This document shows positions 4,564 through 49,292 of a stretch of DNA of 64,000 nt, piece after piece; position 1 is the first letter of the stretch, and each line of letters opens with the position of its first letter. The translations under genes and the position numbers were made by a program. The notes under the pieces were generated by a model that did not search any database, had not been told where the DNA came from, and saw only the letters and a list, made by a program, of their open reading frames with translations. Source of the DNA: Octopus vulgaris (lineage: Eukaryota); contig OX597816.1 in NCBI GenBank assembly GCA_951406725.2, positions 144,088,001-144,152,000 of the forward strand, read 5' to 3'.

Positions 4564-4982
4564 GCCTTTCTACTATAGGCACAAGACAGGGGGTTTAGGG
4601 GGAGGGGACCAGTCGATTACTTCGACCCCAGTACTTGACTGGTACTTAATTTATAAACCTCGAAAGGATGAAAGGCAAAGTCGACCTTGGCAGAATGTAG
4701 TGGCAGACAAAATACCGCTAAGCATTTTGTCTGGTTTGTTAACGATTCTTATTTCTTTATTGCCCACAAAGGGCTAAACATAGAGGGGACAAACAAGGAC
4801 AGACAAACGAATTAAGTCGATGACATCGACCCCAGTGCGTAACTGATACTTAATTTATCGACCCCGAAAGGATGAAAGGCAAGGTTGACCTCAGCGTAAT
4901 TTGAACTCAGAACGTAATGGCAGACGAAATACTGGTAAACATTTTGCCCGGTGCACTAACAATTCTGCCAGCTTGTCACCTT
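4564..4982 (-). mobile_element. Tandem (dimeric) tRNA-derived Nin/Deu-domain-type SINE
   Basis: Two copies of the 'gaccccgaaaggatgaaaggcaaagtcgacc' core; flanked by ttaaccaa(c/t)tgactaataa at 4545-4563 and 4981-4999. Confidence 0.85.
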
Positions 4983-11097: not shown

Positions 11098-11690
11098 ATA
11101 ATGCGGTTTTTTCAACAGCTTGAACTAAATGTCAGAGGGGAATGGGATAAACTACTTATATTAACTTGCTATAAAAGCAGGTAGTAATTTTATCTTGTCC
11201 TTATTCATAGTGCAAGTTTTGAAGAGTGCATTTCGATTTTAACAACTATTTTTTTCAAAGCTATATTGGAAGTAACAAAGGAGCATATTTGGCATATTTT
11301 GCTTTATGAGTTCAATAAAGACAACAACGCAACGGAAAGTACAAGAAATATTAATGCAGTATATGGGGATTGGACAATAAGCGTAAGGCAGTGTCAATGG
11401 TGGTTCCAGAAATTCCGAGCCATAAACTACAGCCTAGAAGACGAGCCTCATCCTGAAAGATCTGTAGAACTCGACAAGGACATCCTGAAAACCCTGGTGG
11501 AACAAAATCTCATCGTAACTGTTGAGGAACTAGCAGAGAAGCTTGGATTAGGTCATTCAACCATTCATTGAGACCTGTGTGCTATCGGAAAAGTCAGCAA
11601 ATTGGGTCAATGGGTTCCTCACGAACTTTCCGAGTCTAATTGCATGCAGAGAGTGAATGTATGCTTTTCTTTGCTGTCACATCTCACCAC
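11097..11690 (+). mobile_element. Mariner transposon 5' half (partial TIR + N-terminal HTH transposase), truncated
   Basis: ORF 11266-11571 HIWHILLYEF...QWWFQKFR..YSLEDEPHP is a mariner HTH; past a stop, tgggttcctcacgaactt = WVPHEL linker; 5' end matches the TIR/UTR of 16472-16884. Confidence 0.93.
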
Positions 11691-18782: not shown

Positions 18783-21700
18783 TCATCATCATCATTGTTC
18801 GACCGTGGTCGAGACAATGGAATTTACCATGTTGCGCCAGACTTCACGGTCCATCATAGCATTACGGAGGTCCTGTTGCTGGATGCCTGTATCCCTGGAG
18901 ATTACATCAGGGTAGGAGAGTGTGCGCCCTCTGGTGTTGCGAGTAGATGGCTTCCAGAGGAGAAGAGTAGAAATTACTTCTTTTTCAGCTCTACAACAAT
19001 GTCCAGCAAACTGGACTCTCCTACCCTTCACAAGAGATGACACAGGTGGTAATTTCCCATATATTTGCATTTTAGTTGGATGGCGCCTCCACGAGAGATT
19101 TTGAGCTCTCATAAGGAGGCGAGTGTAGGTTCCATCCAACCGCCTCTCAAGCTTCTTTGATAACGTCCAGGTTTCTGAGCCATATAGTAGGATTGGTTCG
19201 ACTGTGGCTTTGAATATTTCAAGTTTGAAGTCTCTACTTAGATTTGATGACCAGATCTTATGCATGTCATTACAGGCTGACCAGGCCATACCCTTTCTAG
19301 TTAGAAAGTCTTTTCCAGATGATGATATGTATGACCCAAGATATTTATAATCAGAAACCATATTTAAAGGTGCACTGTTGAGAGTGTGGATGATGCAATC
19401 ACTGTTGGACAGGCACTTGTTTATGTATTCAGTTTTGGTCTCATTAAGGTAAAGACCTACACAATTTGAGGCTTGTTCAAGAGATTGTAAAAGAGACTGG
19501 GCATTGGAGAGAGAATCACTGATAAGAGCGATGTCGTCAGCAAAGTCAGTGTCTGTCAAGTACTCAGCTGGGTGTCTGGAACTTCTTCTTGGTTTTATTT
19601 CAAAGCCCTTGCCAGAGATGGTATCAACTGACATACGTAGCACATAATCAACAACAATGATGAAAAGAAATGGGGCGAGTGTGTCTCCCTGCAGTATTCC
19701 GGCCTCAATCGAGAAAGATGATGTTTTTCCATCAGGGGTTAAGATGGTTGAAGACGTATCTGTGTAGAGGACCTTGATGGCAGAAATAATTTTGTCTGGT
19801 ATCCCATAGAGCTTAAGGATTTCAAACATCTTGCACCTATCTACAGAATCGAACGCTTTAGAAAAGTCTACAAATACCATTGCAAGATCGCGATTAAATG
19901 CTTTTGATTCTTCAATAAGTCTGCGCAGGCATAGTATCTGGCTCAGCGTTGAGCGCCCATGTCTGAATCCATTTTGGTTCTTTCGGAGCAAAGGTTCAAC
20001 AAAAAGGACAAGACAATTTAGGATCAGTTTGTTGTACAGTTTTGCAGCAATTGACATTAGAGATATGCCCCTGTAGTTGGTGACGAGGACAAATCGCCTT
20101 TTTTGGGTATTGGAATGATTTGAGACTGGTGCCAAATCTTTGGAGCGACAAAGGTGGAAAGTGTGTGGTTGCAGAGGTTAAGCAAAAGTGTGTGAAATCT
20201 ATCATCCTTCCAAATCACAGCCGGAATGTTGTCGGGACCAAATGCTTTCGAGGCTTTTAGTTGCTTGGTGGCTGCTGTTAGTTCAAATATGGTAAAAGGG
20301 GAGGTGTTGATGTCCAGCGTGTCTGATATAGGCACACTTGGGAGAGTGGGGTTATCAGGGATTTTGGCATTCTTCCCAAGGAGGTTTTTAAAATGGGTTG
20401 ACCAATTTTCTAAACGCTTCTTAGCTGATCCCCCTTTAATTCTAATTGATGACCCAGAATTTTTGCCTGATAGGTCTTTGATGGATTTCCAGGCGAGATG
20501 GTGTTTTTTACTAATGTGCTCTTTCGATAGTTTACTAATTTTGCCATTGATAAATTTGACCTCGGCGTTCAAGTAAGCCTCATCAAGATTCTTCCTGGCA
20601 GCTATGAGTTGGATCTTCAGTGACTGGGATGGAGAACGGTGGTAAGCTAGTGATATAGACTTTAGATGGTTTCTGGCTTCGATGACATTTGGGGAATTAG
20701 AAGGTTTGCTCTGGCCCCTACTCTTCCTTTTGGGAAGAGTAGCCAGTGCAACTTTCTCTGTTGATTTGATGAGGCTGCTGTATACTTCCTCAATGTTCTC
20801 AGCATCTATTTCAGAAGTAGACAGAGATTGAAATTTGTTATAGACCTCAATAGTAAATTGTTTGGACATATCGGGGTTAGATAAGACTTCCTCCCAGTCG
20901 ATCATTTTGATCGGGTGAGGCTTAGTTTTTTTGGATGAGCGAAGACTAAGCTTAACGGTAGCTGATACAATTCTGTGGTCAGAGCCGACAGAACTAAAGG
21001 AAGAGTAGGATCTCAAGTCCTTAACACTATTGCGCCATTTCTTTCGAAAGATGAGGTAGTCAATTTGTGCCCTATCACCAAGTGGGGACTCAAATGTCCA
21101 AAGTTGACCTTTTGGTTTCATAAAAGAATTGTTGGAGGTGTAGAGATTAAATTCCTCCAAGAAGTCTTTGAGCATTTCTCCGTTCCGATTGGTTTTAGAG
21201 TTGAAAGTAAACTTGGTCTCATCGGGTCCTAGTCTAGCATTCAGATCACCAGCTATAACCAGAAAATTATGGAGAGGTACTTGCTCAATGGTTGAACGAA
21301 GGGTTGTATAGAAATTTTCAATTTCGTCTGCCACAGACGAATTATGTGGGCTATACACACATACCAATGTTGTTTTTGGGTTTCCATCTATCTCAAGCAC
21401 CATAATTCTAGGTGAGATTGACTCTATACTCAAGAGAGTATCACTAGCCTTTGATGAAAGTAGAAATCCGATACCTCCAACTGTTGAATTAACAGTATTC
21501 TTTGATGCTGAGGAGGTTACAAGTTGATAAGAACCGACTTGATGGTATTTGAGGATGTTGTCAGGGTGGTAAAATCGGTGTTCTTGGACAGCTATTATAT
21601 CAATGCCATGTGATTCTGCATTTGCACCAAGTTCTTCTAGACGGCCAAGAGAGCCGAGGGTGCGGGCATTGAGGGTGCTGAGTATCGTATGATTTTTACA

Positions 21701-22128
21701 GCTGATGAGGTGTTTGTTTGGTGTTGTTTGGTTGGGGGCTGACTCTTCTCCATCAGGTGATACCCGTCTGTTAAGATTGAGGGCATCACCGTCAATGGAT
21801 GCCCTTGGAGGTGCAACATGATCAGAGACAGGACCCGGCACAGCAGGGGCTGGACCTACATCCGCAGGTATACCATTAGGTCTGGTTCCCTGGGGAAGAG
21901 GAACCCTGGTGCAGTAAATTGTAAATTCCATAGTCTTTTCAAATGGCTAATAATGTGTGCGCGCGCCACTACTACACACATTGGAAAGCATTGTACAACC
22001 AAGTACTAAAGAAGATCTTTCCTCCTCCATGAAACAAAGCTGTTCCCGCTGGACGTCAACCCAGTACTTCTAAGCTACACACTTTAGTTGTACACTATGA
22101 ACATTTGTCCAATGACCTGGAATCCAGG
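18783..22128 (-). mobile_element. Near-full-length RTE-superfamily (RTE-X-like) LINE; 5' boundary approximate
   Basis: Single APE-RT ORF, about 200-bp 5' UTR, (TGA)n tail starting at the stop codon. Confidence 0.93.
18792..21931 (-). CDS. LINE ORF: APE endonuclease + reverse transcriptase (about 1046 aa if the 1-nt deletion at 20087-20088 is restored)
   Basis: APE motifs TLNART, VQEHR, GDLNA, QIDY, SDH; RT motifs PKKGDL/NYRGISL, QNGFR, DFSKAFDS, QGDTLAP, FADD, YKYLG; the two track ORFs join as PKKGDLSLVTNYRG with one extra C. Confidence 0.92.
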
Positions 22129-46268: not shown

Positions 46269-46476
46269 TTTCTTTATTGCCCACAAGGGGCTAAACATAG
46301 AGGCGACAAACAAGGACAGACAAACGGTGCGTAACTGGTACTTATTTAATCGACCCCGAAAGGATGAAAGGCAAAGTCGACCTCGGCGGAATTTGAACTC
46401 AGAACGTAGCGGCAGACGAAGTACTGCTAAGCATTTCGCCCGGCGTGCTAACGTTTCTGCCAGCTCGCCGCCTTAC
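46269..46476 (-). mobile_element. Young Nin/Deu-type SINE with 15-bp TSD
   Basis: TSD cggaaaaccatctta at 46254-46268 and 46477-46491; CpGs retained. Confidence 0.92.
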
Positions 46477-47287: not shown

Positions 47288-47337
47288 TATTGTAACGAAA
47301 AAATGGTAATAATACTTTATTAAATTATATATGCATA

Positions 47338-47494
47338 TTACTGGGGAAGACCGGTTTATGGGATTACCCTGGGTTTCCCGATTTTGAAGAGGTCTTAGGC
47401 CAACAGGTTTTGGGGTCTGACGATACGCCATAAAGTTAAACCCTTTGTGAACGGGAAACCCAGGGTAATCTCATAAACCGGCTTTTCGCAGTAA
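47338..47494. mobile_element. 157-bp fold-back element with 43-bp arms overlapping a hammerhead
   Basis: 47338-47380 vs 47452-47494 (ccggtttatgggattaccctgggtttcccg / cgggaaacccagggtaatctcataaaccgg). Confidence 0.8.
47412..47472 (+). ncRNA. Hammerhead ribozyme candidate (type I)
   Basis: ggggt-CTGACGA-tacgc-cataaag-ttaaacc-ctttgtg-aacgg-GAAA-cccaggg-TA-atctc; predicted cleavage after A47467. Confidence 0.7.
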
Positions 47495-48995
47495 AAAATA
47501 TATACTGCTCTACATCTTAGAGTGTGCTTCTCCGGATTTATGTTTTCTACAAACGATATATATATATATGTATGTGTGCGTGTGTGTGTGTGTGGAGAGA
47601 GAGGGGGGGGGAGAAAGCATGTTTCGCTGAAGTGGTCTAAAAATAGCAAAATATATCCGCCGCTTTCACTACATAGATTTAAATACCAAATCCACTGCAA
47701 TCCACATGATCTGGATTGTCTAAAAAAAATATAAACAAGCTCATCTTATTGTTTTTATTTATGTTGCTTGTTGTTTTAGATAATCGCCATAGAGGAAGTT
47801 TTGTCCGTAACAGTTTCGATAATTTCATCGAATTCTTTTCAGTTCATTATGTTGCATATGTGAAGTTATACAGTATTTGCACTAAGTTTGCAGAAGGCTC
47901 CCCTGAGACATCTACACCCCCACCCCACCCCCGCTGTCATATATTTACTTTACGACAGACAATCAATTCTCTTTCGCTTCTTGTGTCCGTGCTAACAAAG
48001 GCTCGATATTTTAGTAGCCTTTCAGTGACGTAGCTGTGGTCGGATTTCTTTGTGAAATGTTTGAAATTGAAAGTATTAATGGTACGATGAGATCAGAGTA
48101 AAATAAATAACACTATTGAGTTTGAACTTGCTTTACTTGAAGCGATTCACTTTATCTCTCTCTCCATTTCTCTCTTTCTTTCTCCTACGTTTCCTACGCT
48201 CTCCCACTCTTTCTCCCGTTTACTCTTTCTGCTTCCACCACCTCCTCCTCCTCCTCCACTCTATTTCTTTTCCTATTTGTCAGCTCTAAGTGTGTCAAGA
48301 TCCACAAGTTCAGGGTCAAGCCTCACGATACGACTTTCAATTCATAACTTTTTTGAGTTTATCATATTTTTTTTCTTCCATTTGTTTCCTTACTTTTTGT
48401 TTTTATTCTATTTTAATTTCTACTTCTCTTTTTAATTTTCTGTTTCTTTTTCGTCGTTGTTTATATGGCGGAAGAATAAATTTGCGTTTACTATTATAAT
48501 CGATTCCGCTTAATTACATATAACAAAACAACAACAAAAAAAACTATACAATTCAGTTAATCGCTTAACTGTTCAAAACAACCATATAGCAAGGAAGTCA
48601 ATCAGTCTAATTGCACATACAAAAGAAGTCAATTTCAGTTATAGTAGAAGATATTTTCCAATTTTGAAGAAGCAAATTGGAAAAATATAGCCATAAATTT
48701 AAACAATTATTTAATTTGATATCTATATTCTTTTATGTACTTTATGTGATAAACAAAGTTGTTAATTAATGTTAGAACTATTTAGCTTTTACTTAAAGAA
48801 AGCAATTATTAAGGTCTAGAATGCCTTGAAAATCTTATTAATACCAGTGTGTGTATGTGTGTGTGTGTGTGTGTGTGCGTGCATGTGTGTGTGTGTACAC
48901 TGTTCAAACGCACAAGAAGAAAATACAAGACAGAGACAAGTGAGGGAACGACACATATGGTGTGTTAGTTTGATGTTCAGGTAAAATGGAGAAGT

Positions 48996-49031: not shown

Positions 49032-49292
49032 GGATGAGGAAGAAAATGGAAAGAAAGAAAATGCAATTTCTGCTGAGGTCGACTGTACCTTTCATTCTTT
49101 TGTGGGGAGGGTTAATACTTTGGGTTAATACGTGAGAGTGACCACTGATTTCGCGGAGATCAACAGGTAAGGCCTTTTGTATTTCTTTCTCCCGTTTGCT
49201 TCTTTTTTTCTGTTGACCTTTTCCTCTATCACACTACACCACTAAAACAAGTATTTTCTTCCACCTTTTCTGTTGAGATTCAACTTCCATTC

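What the first reader, a model, noticed from the sequence alone, without database searches (positions are those of the whole stretch)
47338..47494. 157-bp fold-back whose right arm is also half of a hammerhead: a built-in conformational switch
Seen: the right 43-bp arm supplies GAAA, stem III (cccaggg), the GUA site and 3' stem I of a core-intact hammerhead (CUGACGA at 47417); the left arm is its antisense. A second eroded core (ttgaaga-ggtc-tta-ggcc-aaca) lies at about 47384-47404, as in tandem PLE hammerheads. Inference: arm pairing and the ribozyme fold are mutually exclusive, so full-length RNA would be inactive and 5'-shortened RNA could cleave, reminiscent of rod-like retrozyme/viroid RNAs.
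Basis: partly seen in the sequence, partly recalled or inferred. Interest (0 to 1): 0.72.

Follow-up and report, generated by a model that had tools for sequence, protein, structure and literature searches.

The report
Truncated Hydra-clade Penelope end with hammerhead
The hairpin and the hammerhead motif are both in the sequence, but they are the cut-short end of a common Penelope-like jumping gene plus a mirror-image fragment of it; the fragment was likely made during insertion, the ribozyme is predicted to work only in pairs, and this layout is already described, so a built-in switch is unlikely.

Summary
The fold-back is real (38 of 43 bp; z -9.6). So is a minimal type I hammerhead motif (CUGACGA 47417, GAAA 47455, predicted cut after 47467). 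The 'second core' is not supported.

The repeat unit is not the 157-bp hairpin. It is 47381-47556, the terminal repeat (pLTR) plus one-sided tail of a dispersed Penelope-like retrotransposon family. [quoted passage not shown]

The left arm is the usual 5'-truncated inverted copy. In 17 of 30 loci such a partner exists, its inner end lies anywhere from unit position -14 to 144, and the tail sits on one end only (17 of 17). The arms decay without compensation.

The core is more conserved than expected (p 0.0013). Stem III covaries at a pair that only a dimer can form. The arms would block the ribozyme in a read-through RNA, but removing the arm leaves a monomer predicted to be almost never folded (about 0.1%). 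This is neither a switch nor a MITE.

It is a new family of a known kind. The scan found the same design before on other DNA. Cleavage and expression are untested.

The parts
47338..47380 (-). Inverted 5'-truncated copy of the pLTR 3' part (unit 72-114), without the tail; loosely extends to 47328 through TA-rich bases
   Evidence: 100% identical to the matching part of copy L002
47381..47494 (+). pLTR (3' terminal repeat) of a Hydra-clade Penelope-like element, 5'-truncated; 6.4% from the family column majority
   Evidence: both pLTRs of the RT-bearing copy L092 align to it
47406..47416 (+). Hammerhead stem I, 5' strand
   Evidence: pair 47415/47469 occurs as G-U 47, A-U 11, G-C 7 of 72
47417..47423 (+). 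Catalytic box CUGACGA (C3-A9)
   Evidence: sequence; core conservation
47424..47454 (+). Stem II: U10.1·G11.1, bulged A, 2 bp, then 7 bp in this copy (8 bp in the family) closed by a 7-nt loop
   Evidence: U at 10.1 is the usual Hydra layout
47455..47467 (+). GAAA box, palindromic stem III CCC-A-GGG, U16.1 and A17; predicted cleavage between 47467 and 47468
   Evidence: (47461/47463: C-G 42, U-A 13, C-A 8, U-G 1)
47468..47479 (+). Hammerhead stem I, 3' strand
47495..47556 (+). TA-rich spacer and one-sided family 'tail' (about 52 nt beyond the TA run); present on only one end of inverted insertions
   Evidence: (17 of 17)
47557..47569 (.). (TA)n at the right junction; the left junction 47326-47337 is also TA-rich, and no target-site duplication can be read
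47384..47405 (+).

Best explanation
The sequence is a 5'-truncated copy of the terminal repeat of a Hydra-clade Penelope-like retrotransposon family, joined head-to-head to an inverted fragment of itself; the inversion likely arose during insertion, and the hammerhead it carries is predicted to cleave only as a dimer. Shown: family membership, RT and endonuclease upstream in longer copies, variable inversions, one-sided tail, TA flanks, a conserved core. Inferred steps: (1) The element's GIY-YIG endonuclease nicks a TA-rich site and RT copies the RNA from the tail towards the pLTR start, where it stops. (2) The cDNA 3' end folds back onto a 6-nt self-complementary word (TCCATA occurs at unit -4..+1 and, on the other strand, at unit 66-71). 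(3) It primes on itself and copies unit 72-114 again, giving exactly the left arm, which ends at the next TA run. (4) In the master element the hammerhead likely worked with a second pLTR hammerhead through the CCC-A-GGG palindrome. (5) This copy has since decayed neutrally. In any read-through RNA the 43-bp arm would keep the ribozyme folded off, as a side effect.
For: Family: 1891 first-look candidates, 40 scored, 83 matches; most cover query 44-157 only. Longer copies run upstream into an endonuclease frame. L092 shows inverted pLTR + pLTR + YRDD RT frame + endonuclease + pLTR, 44% and 40% identical to an intact 717-aa sister ORF. The atlas neighbours of that ORF (score 0.96-0.99) carry GIY-YIG, RVT_1, HTH_animal and DUF8422. 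Hydra motifs RWK, DKT, CxCX5C, CxxC and CxH are present and CX2-5CxxC is absent, as defined in PMC8557442 section 11. Geometry: 17 of 30 loci have an inverted 5' partner with the tail on exactly one end. This is the layout of PMC8557442 Fig. 2 legend, PMC3846280 and Penelope-13_HM. Junctions at or next to TCCATA are seen in L001, L008, L010, L012, L028 and L030 among 13 junctions printed, and in L097. Hammerhead: core intact in 30 of 71 copies; non-CpG core divergence 0.049 vs 0.091 expected by base, p 0.0013. The dimer-only pair 47461/47463 covaries (p 2e-7, 6th of 561 column pairs). The sister family has CUC-A-GAG. The dimer fold is 12.4 kcal/mol below two monomer hammerhead folds.
Against: No cleavage or expression data. 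Pfam, NCBIfam and PDB sequence searches gave no RT or GIY-YIG hit for these proteins, so protein identity rests on motifs, the atlas and the published Hydra definition. No tree with published Hydra proteins was built. The stem III covariation may be one subfamily event; other column pairs with no structural link covary as strongly. In only 10 of 41 copies is the dimer hammerhead below two monomer MFEs. This copy lacks the TCCAT letters at its junction, so snap-back needs a later or imprecise 5-nt loss; a longer palindrome with a central deletion would give the same picture. The 17 of 30 figure is inflated because the query contained the fold-back.
Confidence: 0.9

Rival explanations
1. One reading: the 157-nt hairpin is a selected conformational switch in a retrozyme/viroid-like RNA; full-length RNA is off and 5'-shortened RNA cleaves.
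For: Mutual exclusion is real in computation: hammerhead fold about 1e-32 with the arm against about 1e-3 without it. Nine of 17 inverted partners end inside the hammerhead (unit 52-84).
Against: The arm is absent in 13 of 30 loci and variable in length. There is no compensated change between the arms, and arms diverge almost like unrelated copies. The shortened monomer has stem III probability 0.05. The family is protein-coding. Clustering of arm ends is explained by the TCCATA microhomology. The window holds a single copy, with no tandem array.
Confidence: 0.04
2. The master element has a real length-dependent control by another segment: about 13 nt just upstream of the pLTR start pair with the stem II 3' strand and GAAA, so ORF-length RNA would be off and RNA starting at the pLTR would be on.
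For: The upstream segment and unit 66-78 are near-complementary in most of 47 copies. 17 of 35 copy starts fall between -11 and +2, as if an RNA began there.
Against: Best 13-mer complementarity is 11/13 (39 of 1000 shuffles reach it) in L002 and 10/13 (337 of 1000) in L014. Median pairing probability of GAAA with upstream is 0.05-0.07, and above 0.5 in only 12 of 47 copies. No covariation test supports it. The segment is absent from the window copy.
Confidence: 0.08
3. Ordinary MITE or chance palindrome with a chance hammerhead-like motif.
For: No Rfam hammerhead hit. A loose core pattern occurs 12 times per 128 kb. The flanks are TA-rich.
Against: Copies share the inside of the unit, not terminal arms. 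The core is conserved above expectation. The unit continues into an RT-endonuclease frame.
Confidence: 0.01
4. Same element, but the short arm was made after insertion: a longer head-to-head palindrome lost its centre by microhomology-mediated deletion.
For: Full-length head-to-head palindromes of the unit exist (L007, L013, L017, L024). The TCCATA word would also guide a deletion, and this copy lacks 5 nt at the junction.
Against: It does not by itself explain the one-sided tail, and it still needs an inversion at insertion. The two routes cannot be told apart from one genome.
Confidence: 0.25

Closest known systems
Hydra clade of C-terminal-endonuclease Penelope-like elements (Craig et al. 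2021, PMC8557442; e.g. Hydra-1_Obim, Penelope-3_HM, Penelope-13_HM)
   Same: RWK, DKT, CxCX5C, CxxC and CxH motifs, no CCHH; (TA)n targets; 3' hammerhead with a 1-nt-loop palindromic stem III. Stem II is flanked by U at 10.1: U·U in 14 of the 25 families listed in File S2, by my reading. Penelope-13_HM has an inverted 5'-truncated copy attached.
   Different: The sequence differs from Hydra-1_Obim (its listed hammerhead is different, and this family's stem III motif had 0 hits in the supplement). Position 11.1 is mostly G (U·G) with a bulged A. The tail is about 52-60 nt rather than 30-40. A long low-complexity insert lies inside the endonuclease region of this family.
Minimal PLE hammerheads (Cervera and de la Pena 2014, PMC4209133)
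   Same: Type I, long helix II, palindromic helix III, dimer-dependent design, dispersed single copies from truncated PLEs. Pairs on opposite strands 100-700 bp apart are already noted there.
   Different: G10.1-C11.1, called highly conserved there, is not present. Stem I is longer (11 bp with a bulge).
Head-to-head inverted pLTRs of Adineta vaga Penelope (Arkhipova et al. 2013, PMC3846280)
   Same: Inverted 5' pLTR shorter than the direct one, tail on one end, palindromic junction, self-priming on an antisense template proposed.
   Different: Here the insertion is pLTR-only (219 bp), has no readable target-site duplication, and the junction maps to a 6-nt microhomology at the hammerhead's stem II.
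Metazoan non-LTR retrozymes (PMC7229834)
   Same: Type I hammerhead in a short animal repeat.
   Different: Retrozymes are non-coding tandem repeats of 170-400 nt that yield circular RNAs. This family is the end of a coding element, is single at this locus and is inverted, not tandem.

Membership tests
EN+ Penelope-like element | Single ORF with RT and C-terminal GIY-YIG endonuclease upstream of the pLTR | tested here: met
   Longer family copies: YRDD RT frame and endonuclease frame, 40-44% identical to the intact 717-aa sister ORF, whose atlas neighbours carry RVT_1 and GIY-YIG. Direct Pfam scans were blank. The window copy itself has no ORF.
EN+ Penelope-like element | pLTRs in direct and inverted arrangement, 5' truncation | tested here: met
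   L092 architecture; 17 of 30 loci inverted
EN+ Penelope-like element | Tail on one end of the insertion | tested here: met
   17 of 17 inverted loci; longer than the published 30-40 bp
Hydra clade | RWK and DKT motifs in the N-terminal part | tested here: met
   Sister ORF has RWK 46 and DKT 123. In the finding's family DKT is seen in L035/L066 and RXK, with a stop at W, in L037/L040.
Hydra clade | CxCX5C linker, CxxC and CxH around the conserved E and N, no CCHH, no CX2-5CxxC | tested here: met
   Sister ORF has all of these. Family fragments: CxCX5C in 11 of 21 and CxC in 19 of 21 linker hits; CxxC in 24 and CxH in 35 of 45 endonuclease-end hits, loci partly redundant.
Hydra clade | Insertion into (TA)n | tested here: met
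   Window flanks and most of the 30 loci printed
Hydra clade | Placement in the Hydra clade by RT phylogeny | not tested
Type I minimal hammerhead | CUGANGA, GAAA and UH core with three helices | tested here: met
Type I minimal hammerhead | G10.1-C11.1 pair (consensus of PMC4209133) | tested here: not met
   U·G in 55, U-A in 5, U·U in 3 of 72. Non-G-C pairs are common in published Hydra hammerheads, and U·U is reported as tolerated (PMC3088659).
Type I minimal hammerhead | Palindromic stem III allowing a dimer | tested here: met
   CCC-A-GGG 27 and CCU-A-AGG 7 of 72; self-duplex -11.6 kcal/mol; sister CUC-A-GAG
Type I minimal hammerhead | Self-cleavage | not testable with these tools
   Needs an in vitro assay; only contigs were available.
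Non-LTR retrozyme | Non-coding tandem repeat with a hammerhead in each unit | tested here: not met
   One copy in the window; the family is coding.
MITE | Fixed terminal inverted repeats shared by copies, with a TSD | tested here: not met
   Arm absent or variable; the inside is what copies share.
Neptune clade (considered first) | CX2-5CxxC linker and CCHH motif | tested here: not met
   definition

The most novel reading that the evidence does not exclude
One short self-complementary element does two jobs in this family. The segment just upstream of the pLTR start pairs with the hammerhead's stem II/GAAA strand, keeping the ribozyme off in ORF-length RNA. The same complementarity makes the finished cDNA snap back at that spot, so the clustered inversion junctions are a genomic record of how Penelope-like elements prime second-strand synthesis.
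Probability: 0.1. Interest if true: 0.5.

Novelty: new member of a known kind. Interest (0 to 1): 0.15.

Why it matters
As found, it matters little: it is one decayed stub among many, with a layout already described for Penelope-like elements. Two small contributions. First, natural covariation at a stem III pair that exists only in a dimer supports the dimer model for Hydra hammerheads. Second, junctions clustered at a 6-nt microhomology give a testable route (cDNA snap-back) to the head-to-head inversions, whose origin the papers read here call unresolved. A true regulated switch would have been of real interest, but the evidence is against it.

Tried and rejected
- Rfam, whole window and local: no hammerhead hit, only microsatellite or hairpin miRNA matches below the gathering scores.
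- Pfam, NCBIfam and PDB sequence scans of the element proteins: no relevant hit. The homolog search gave 829 mostly unnamed relatives with HTH_animal/DUF8422.
- My first clade guess, Neptune (note 1), was dropped.
- A second hammerhead core was rejected.
- An internal 'anti-core' hairpin (47392-47401 with 47414-47424, in the MFE) is broken by two subfamily changes (A·A 14, C·A 13), so it is not supported.
- The upstream anti-GAAA pairing is weak.
- The tail hairpin is not more stable than shuffles in the window copy (z 0.0; L002 z -2.0).
- The relaxed descriptor found almost nothing, because its lazy pattern mis-set stem III; no conclusion was drawn from it.
- Exact-junction pattern: 2 hits genome-wide, one true junction (L097) and one ordinary upstream sequence (L096).
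- Expression: no RNA holder listed. The four runs laid were contigs only; none spanned the whole stretch, and they cannot show starts, ends or circles.
- No host gene was identified in the window.
- Lunse et al. (PMC5785218) is not held and was not seen; it may describe closer variants.
- Two misaligned partial rows were kept and dropped from then on.

Full report
Observation. The window is from a 2.8-Gb genome in 227 contigs, rich in microsatellites; earlier scan notes call it an octopus, which I did not check. The arms 47338-47380 and 47452-47494 match at 38 of 43 positions and fold at -85 kcal/mol, z -9.6. A type I hammerhead can be read on the + strand: stem I 47406-47416 with 47468-47479, CUGACGA 47417-47423, stem II 47424-47454, GAAA 47455-47458, CCC-A-GGG 47459-47465, U16.1 47466, A17 47467. 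Rfam does not detect it, and a loose core pattern has 12 hits per 128 kb, so family evidence was needed.

The unit is not the hairpin. A search of the genome with 47338-47494 gave 1891 candidates (40 scored, 83 matches), most covering only query 44-157. In the 30 loci fetched, copies extend 3' by a shared tail and 5' by shared sequence, and most end in (TA)n. Walking upstream reached endonuclease-like frames. Locus L092 shows the whole plan: inverted pLTR with tail, direct pLTR, RT frame with YRDD, endonuclease frame, pLTR. These frames are 44% and 40% identical to an intact 717-aa ORF of a young sister family. Pfam, NCBIfam and PDB sequence scans were blank. The atlas neighbours, however, carry GIY-YIG, RVT_1, HTH_animal and DUF8422. 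The ORF has RWK, DKT, CxCX5C, CxxC and CxH and lacks CX2-5CxxC; 45 of 46 partly redundant family loci give tblastn hits to it. These motifs define the Hydra clade in PMC8557442 (section 11 read). No tree was built.

The left arm. Of the 30 loci, 17 have an inverted 5' partner within 400 nt. This share is inflated because the query held the fold-back. Inner ends lie at unit -14, -11, -8, -1, 3, 4, 52, 54, 63, 65, 66, 70, 72, 76, 84, 140 and 144. The tail is on the inverted side in 10 and on the direct side in 7, never both. This is the published insertion form: PMC8557442 text and Fig. 2 legend (passages), PMC3846280 (passages), opposite-strand hammerhead pairs in PMC4209133 (parts 1-2 of 4), and Penelope-13_HM in File S1/S2 of PMC8557442 (supplement part 2 of 59). 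Of the five differences between the arms here, four are changes in the right arm and one in the left relative to the family majority; none is compensated. Eleven opposite-strand pairs at single loci differ by a median 0.152, against 0.19 between loci. This fits identical arms at insertion followed by independent decay.

How the arm likely formed (inferred). TCCATA occurs on the + strand at unit -4..+1 and on the - strand at unit 66-71. A cDNA that stops at the pLTR start ends in the complement of this word, can fold back on itself there and copy unit 72-114, which is the left arm. Junctions at or next to this word are seen in L001, L008, L010, L012, L028 and L030 among the 13 printed, and cleanly in L097. 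The window copy lacks five of the six letters at its junction. Later deletion from a longer palindrome is not excluded. Self-priming on an antisense template was proposed in PMC3846280. AT-rich cleavage and tail formation by internal RT starts were shown for Poseidon in PMC11167929 (parts 1-2 of 4).

The hammerhead. Among 74 distinct copies aligned, the 11-nt core plus H17 is intact in 30 of the 71 without gaps. After dropping two misaligned rows, non-CpG core positions diverge 0.049 against 0.091 expected from base type (p 0.0013); copies are related, so this p is optimistic. Pair 47461/47463 is C-G in 42, U-A in 13, C-A in 8 and U-G in 1 (p 2e-7, 6th of 561 variable column pairs). It closes a 1-nt loop and so can form only between two hammerheads, though it may be a single subfamily event. 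The sister family has CUC-A-GAG, and published Hydra hammerheads share this form. Stem II opens with U·G (55 of 72), not G-C. By my count 14 of 25 listed Hydra families have U·U there, and PMC3088659 (passages) reports U·U as tolerated. Computed probability of the hammerhead fold is about 1e-32 in 47338-47494, 2-3e-5 in 47381-47494 and 1-2e-3 in 47405-47480. The dimer fold of this copy is -39.8 kcal/mol, against -27.4 for two monomer folds and -42.4 for the best dimer. Only 10 of 41 copies have a dimer hammerhead below two monomer MFEs. PMC4209133 found minimal PLE hammerheads inactive as monomers and weak as dimers. PMC11167929 found cleavage protein-assisted and not needed for insertion in vitro.

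The second core. No copy of 74 has GAAA at 47402-47405, and 5 of 64 have C at 47384. A motif this relaxed occurs 24 times per 128 kb. It is not supported, although an ancient relic cannot be strictly excluded.

The switch idea. The arm would silence the ribozyme in a read-through RNA, but it is optional, variable, uncompensated and explained by insertion mechanics, and its removal does not yield a predicted active monomer. A possible control in the master RNA through 13 nt upstream of the pLTR start was tested and is weak. Expression could not be judged.

What is in print. Seven paper searches returned results. They found the layout and the hammerhead type described, but no description of this exact family. 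Its stem III motif had no hit in the one supplement searched. Repbase and subscription journals were not searchable, and PMC5785218 was not held. Also seen: bioRxiv 10.64898/2026.07.22.740005 part 1 of 5 (its supplements are closed), and passages of PMC6765202, PMC7229834 and PMC6962438. Earlier scan notes reach the same reading for other families; none matched this sequence.

Verdict. A real feature, a new family member of a known kind, interest 0.15.

Noticed in passing
L086:4724-5000 (hammerhead core at 4916) and L087-L090, L094, L095: A young Hydra-clade sister family with intact 717-aa ORFs, in tandem and head-to-head arrays. A 32-nt pattern has 3144 exact hits; the 100 listed and all 14 copies carry a U4C core (CCGAAGA), an extra U before GAAA, and a CUUCGG in stem II complementary to the core. 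U4C is a known slow variant (PMC3088659), and earlier scan notes saw U4C Hydra families.
   Followed up: partly
L083:2475: A hammerhead close to the published Hydra-1_Obim motif (same stem II and loop), so that family or a close relative is in this genome.
   Followed up: partly
L044, L046, L047, L057, L064, L065, L092 (endonuclease region): The finding's family carries a long Asn/Ser/Thr-rich low-complexity insert inside the endonuclease region, between the linker and the YIG motif. It recalls the N-rich inserts of Adineta Penelopes (PMC3846280).
   Followed up: no
window 47505-47530: A small bulged hairpin can be drawn at the start of the tail; it is not more stable than shuffles in this copy.
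   Followed up: partly
window 18792-21946 (-): A LINE with AP endonuclease (PF03372/PF14529) and RT (PF00078) in two overlapping frames, 629 and 461 aa.
   Followed up: partly
window 11188-11571 (+): Mariner/Mos1 transposase fragment (PF17906, E 5e-20).
   Followed up: partly
window 46354-46395 and 49064-49105: Two copies of another short dispersed repeat in opposite orientation on either side of the finding; it also occurs beside L026. SINE-like (recalled), not tested.
   Followed up: no
L001-L030, unit -11..+2: 17 of 35 copy starts cluster at the pLTR start, which may mark a transcription start or an RT stop; the count is partly biased by the query.
   Followed up: partly
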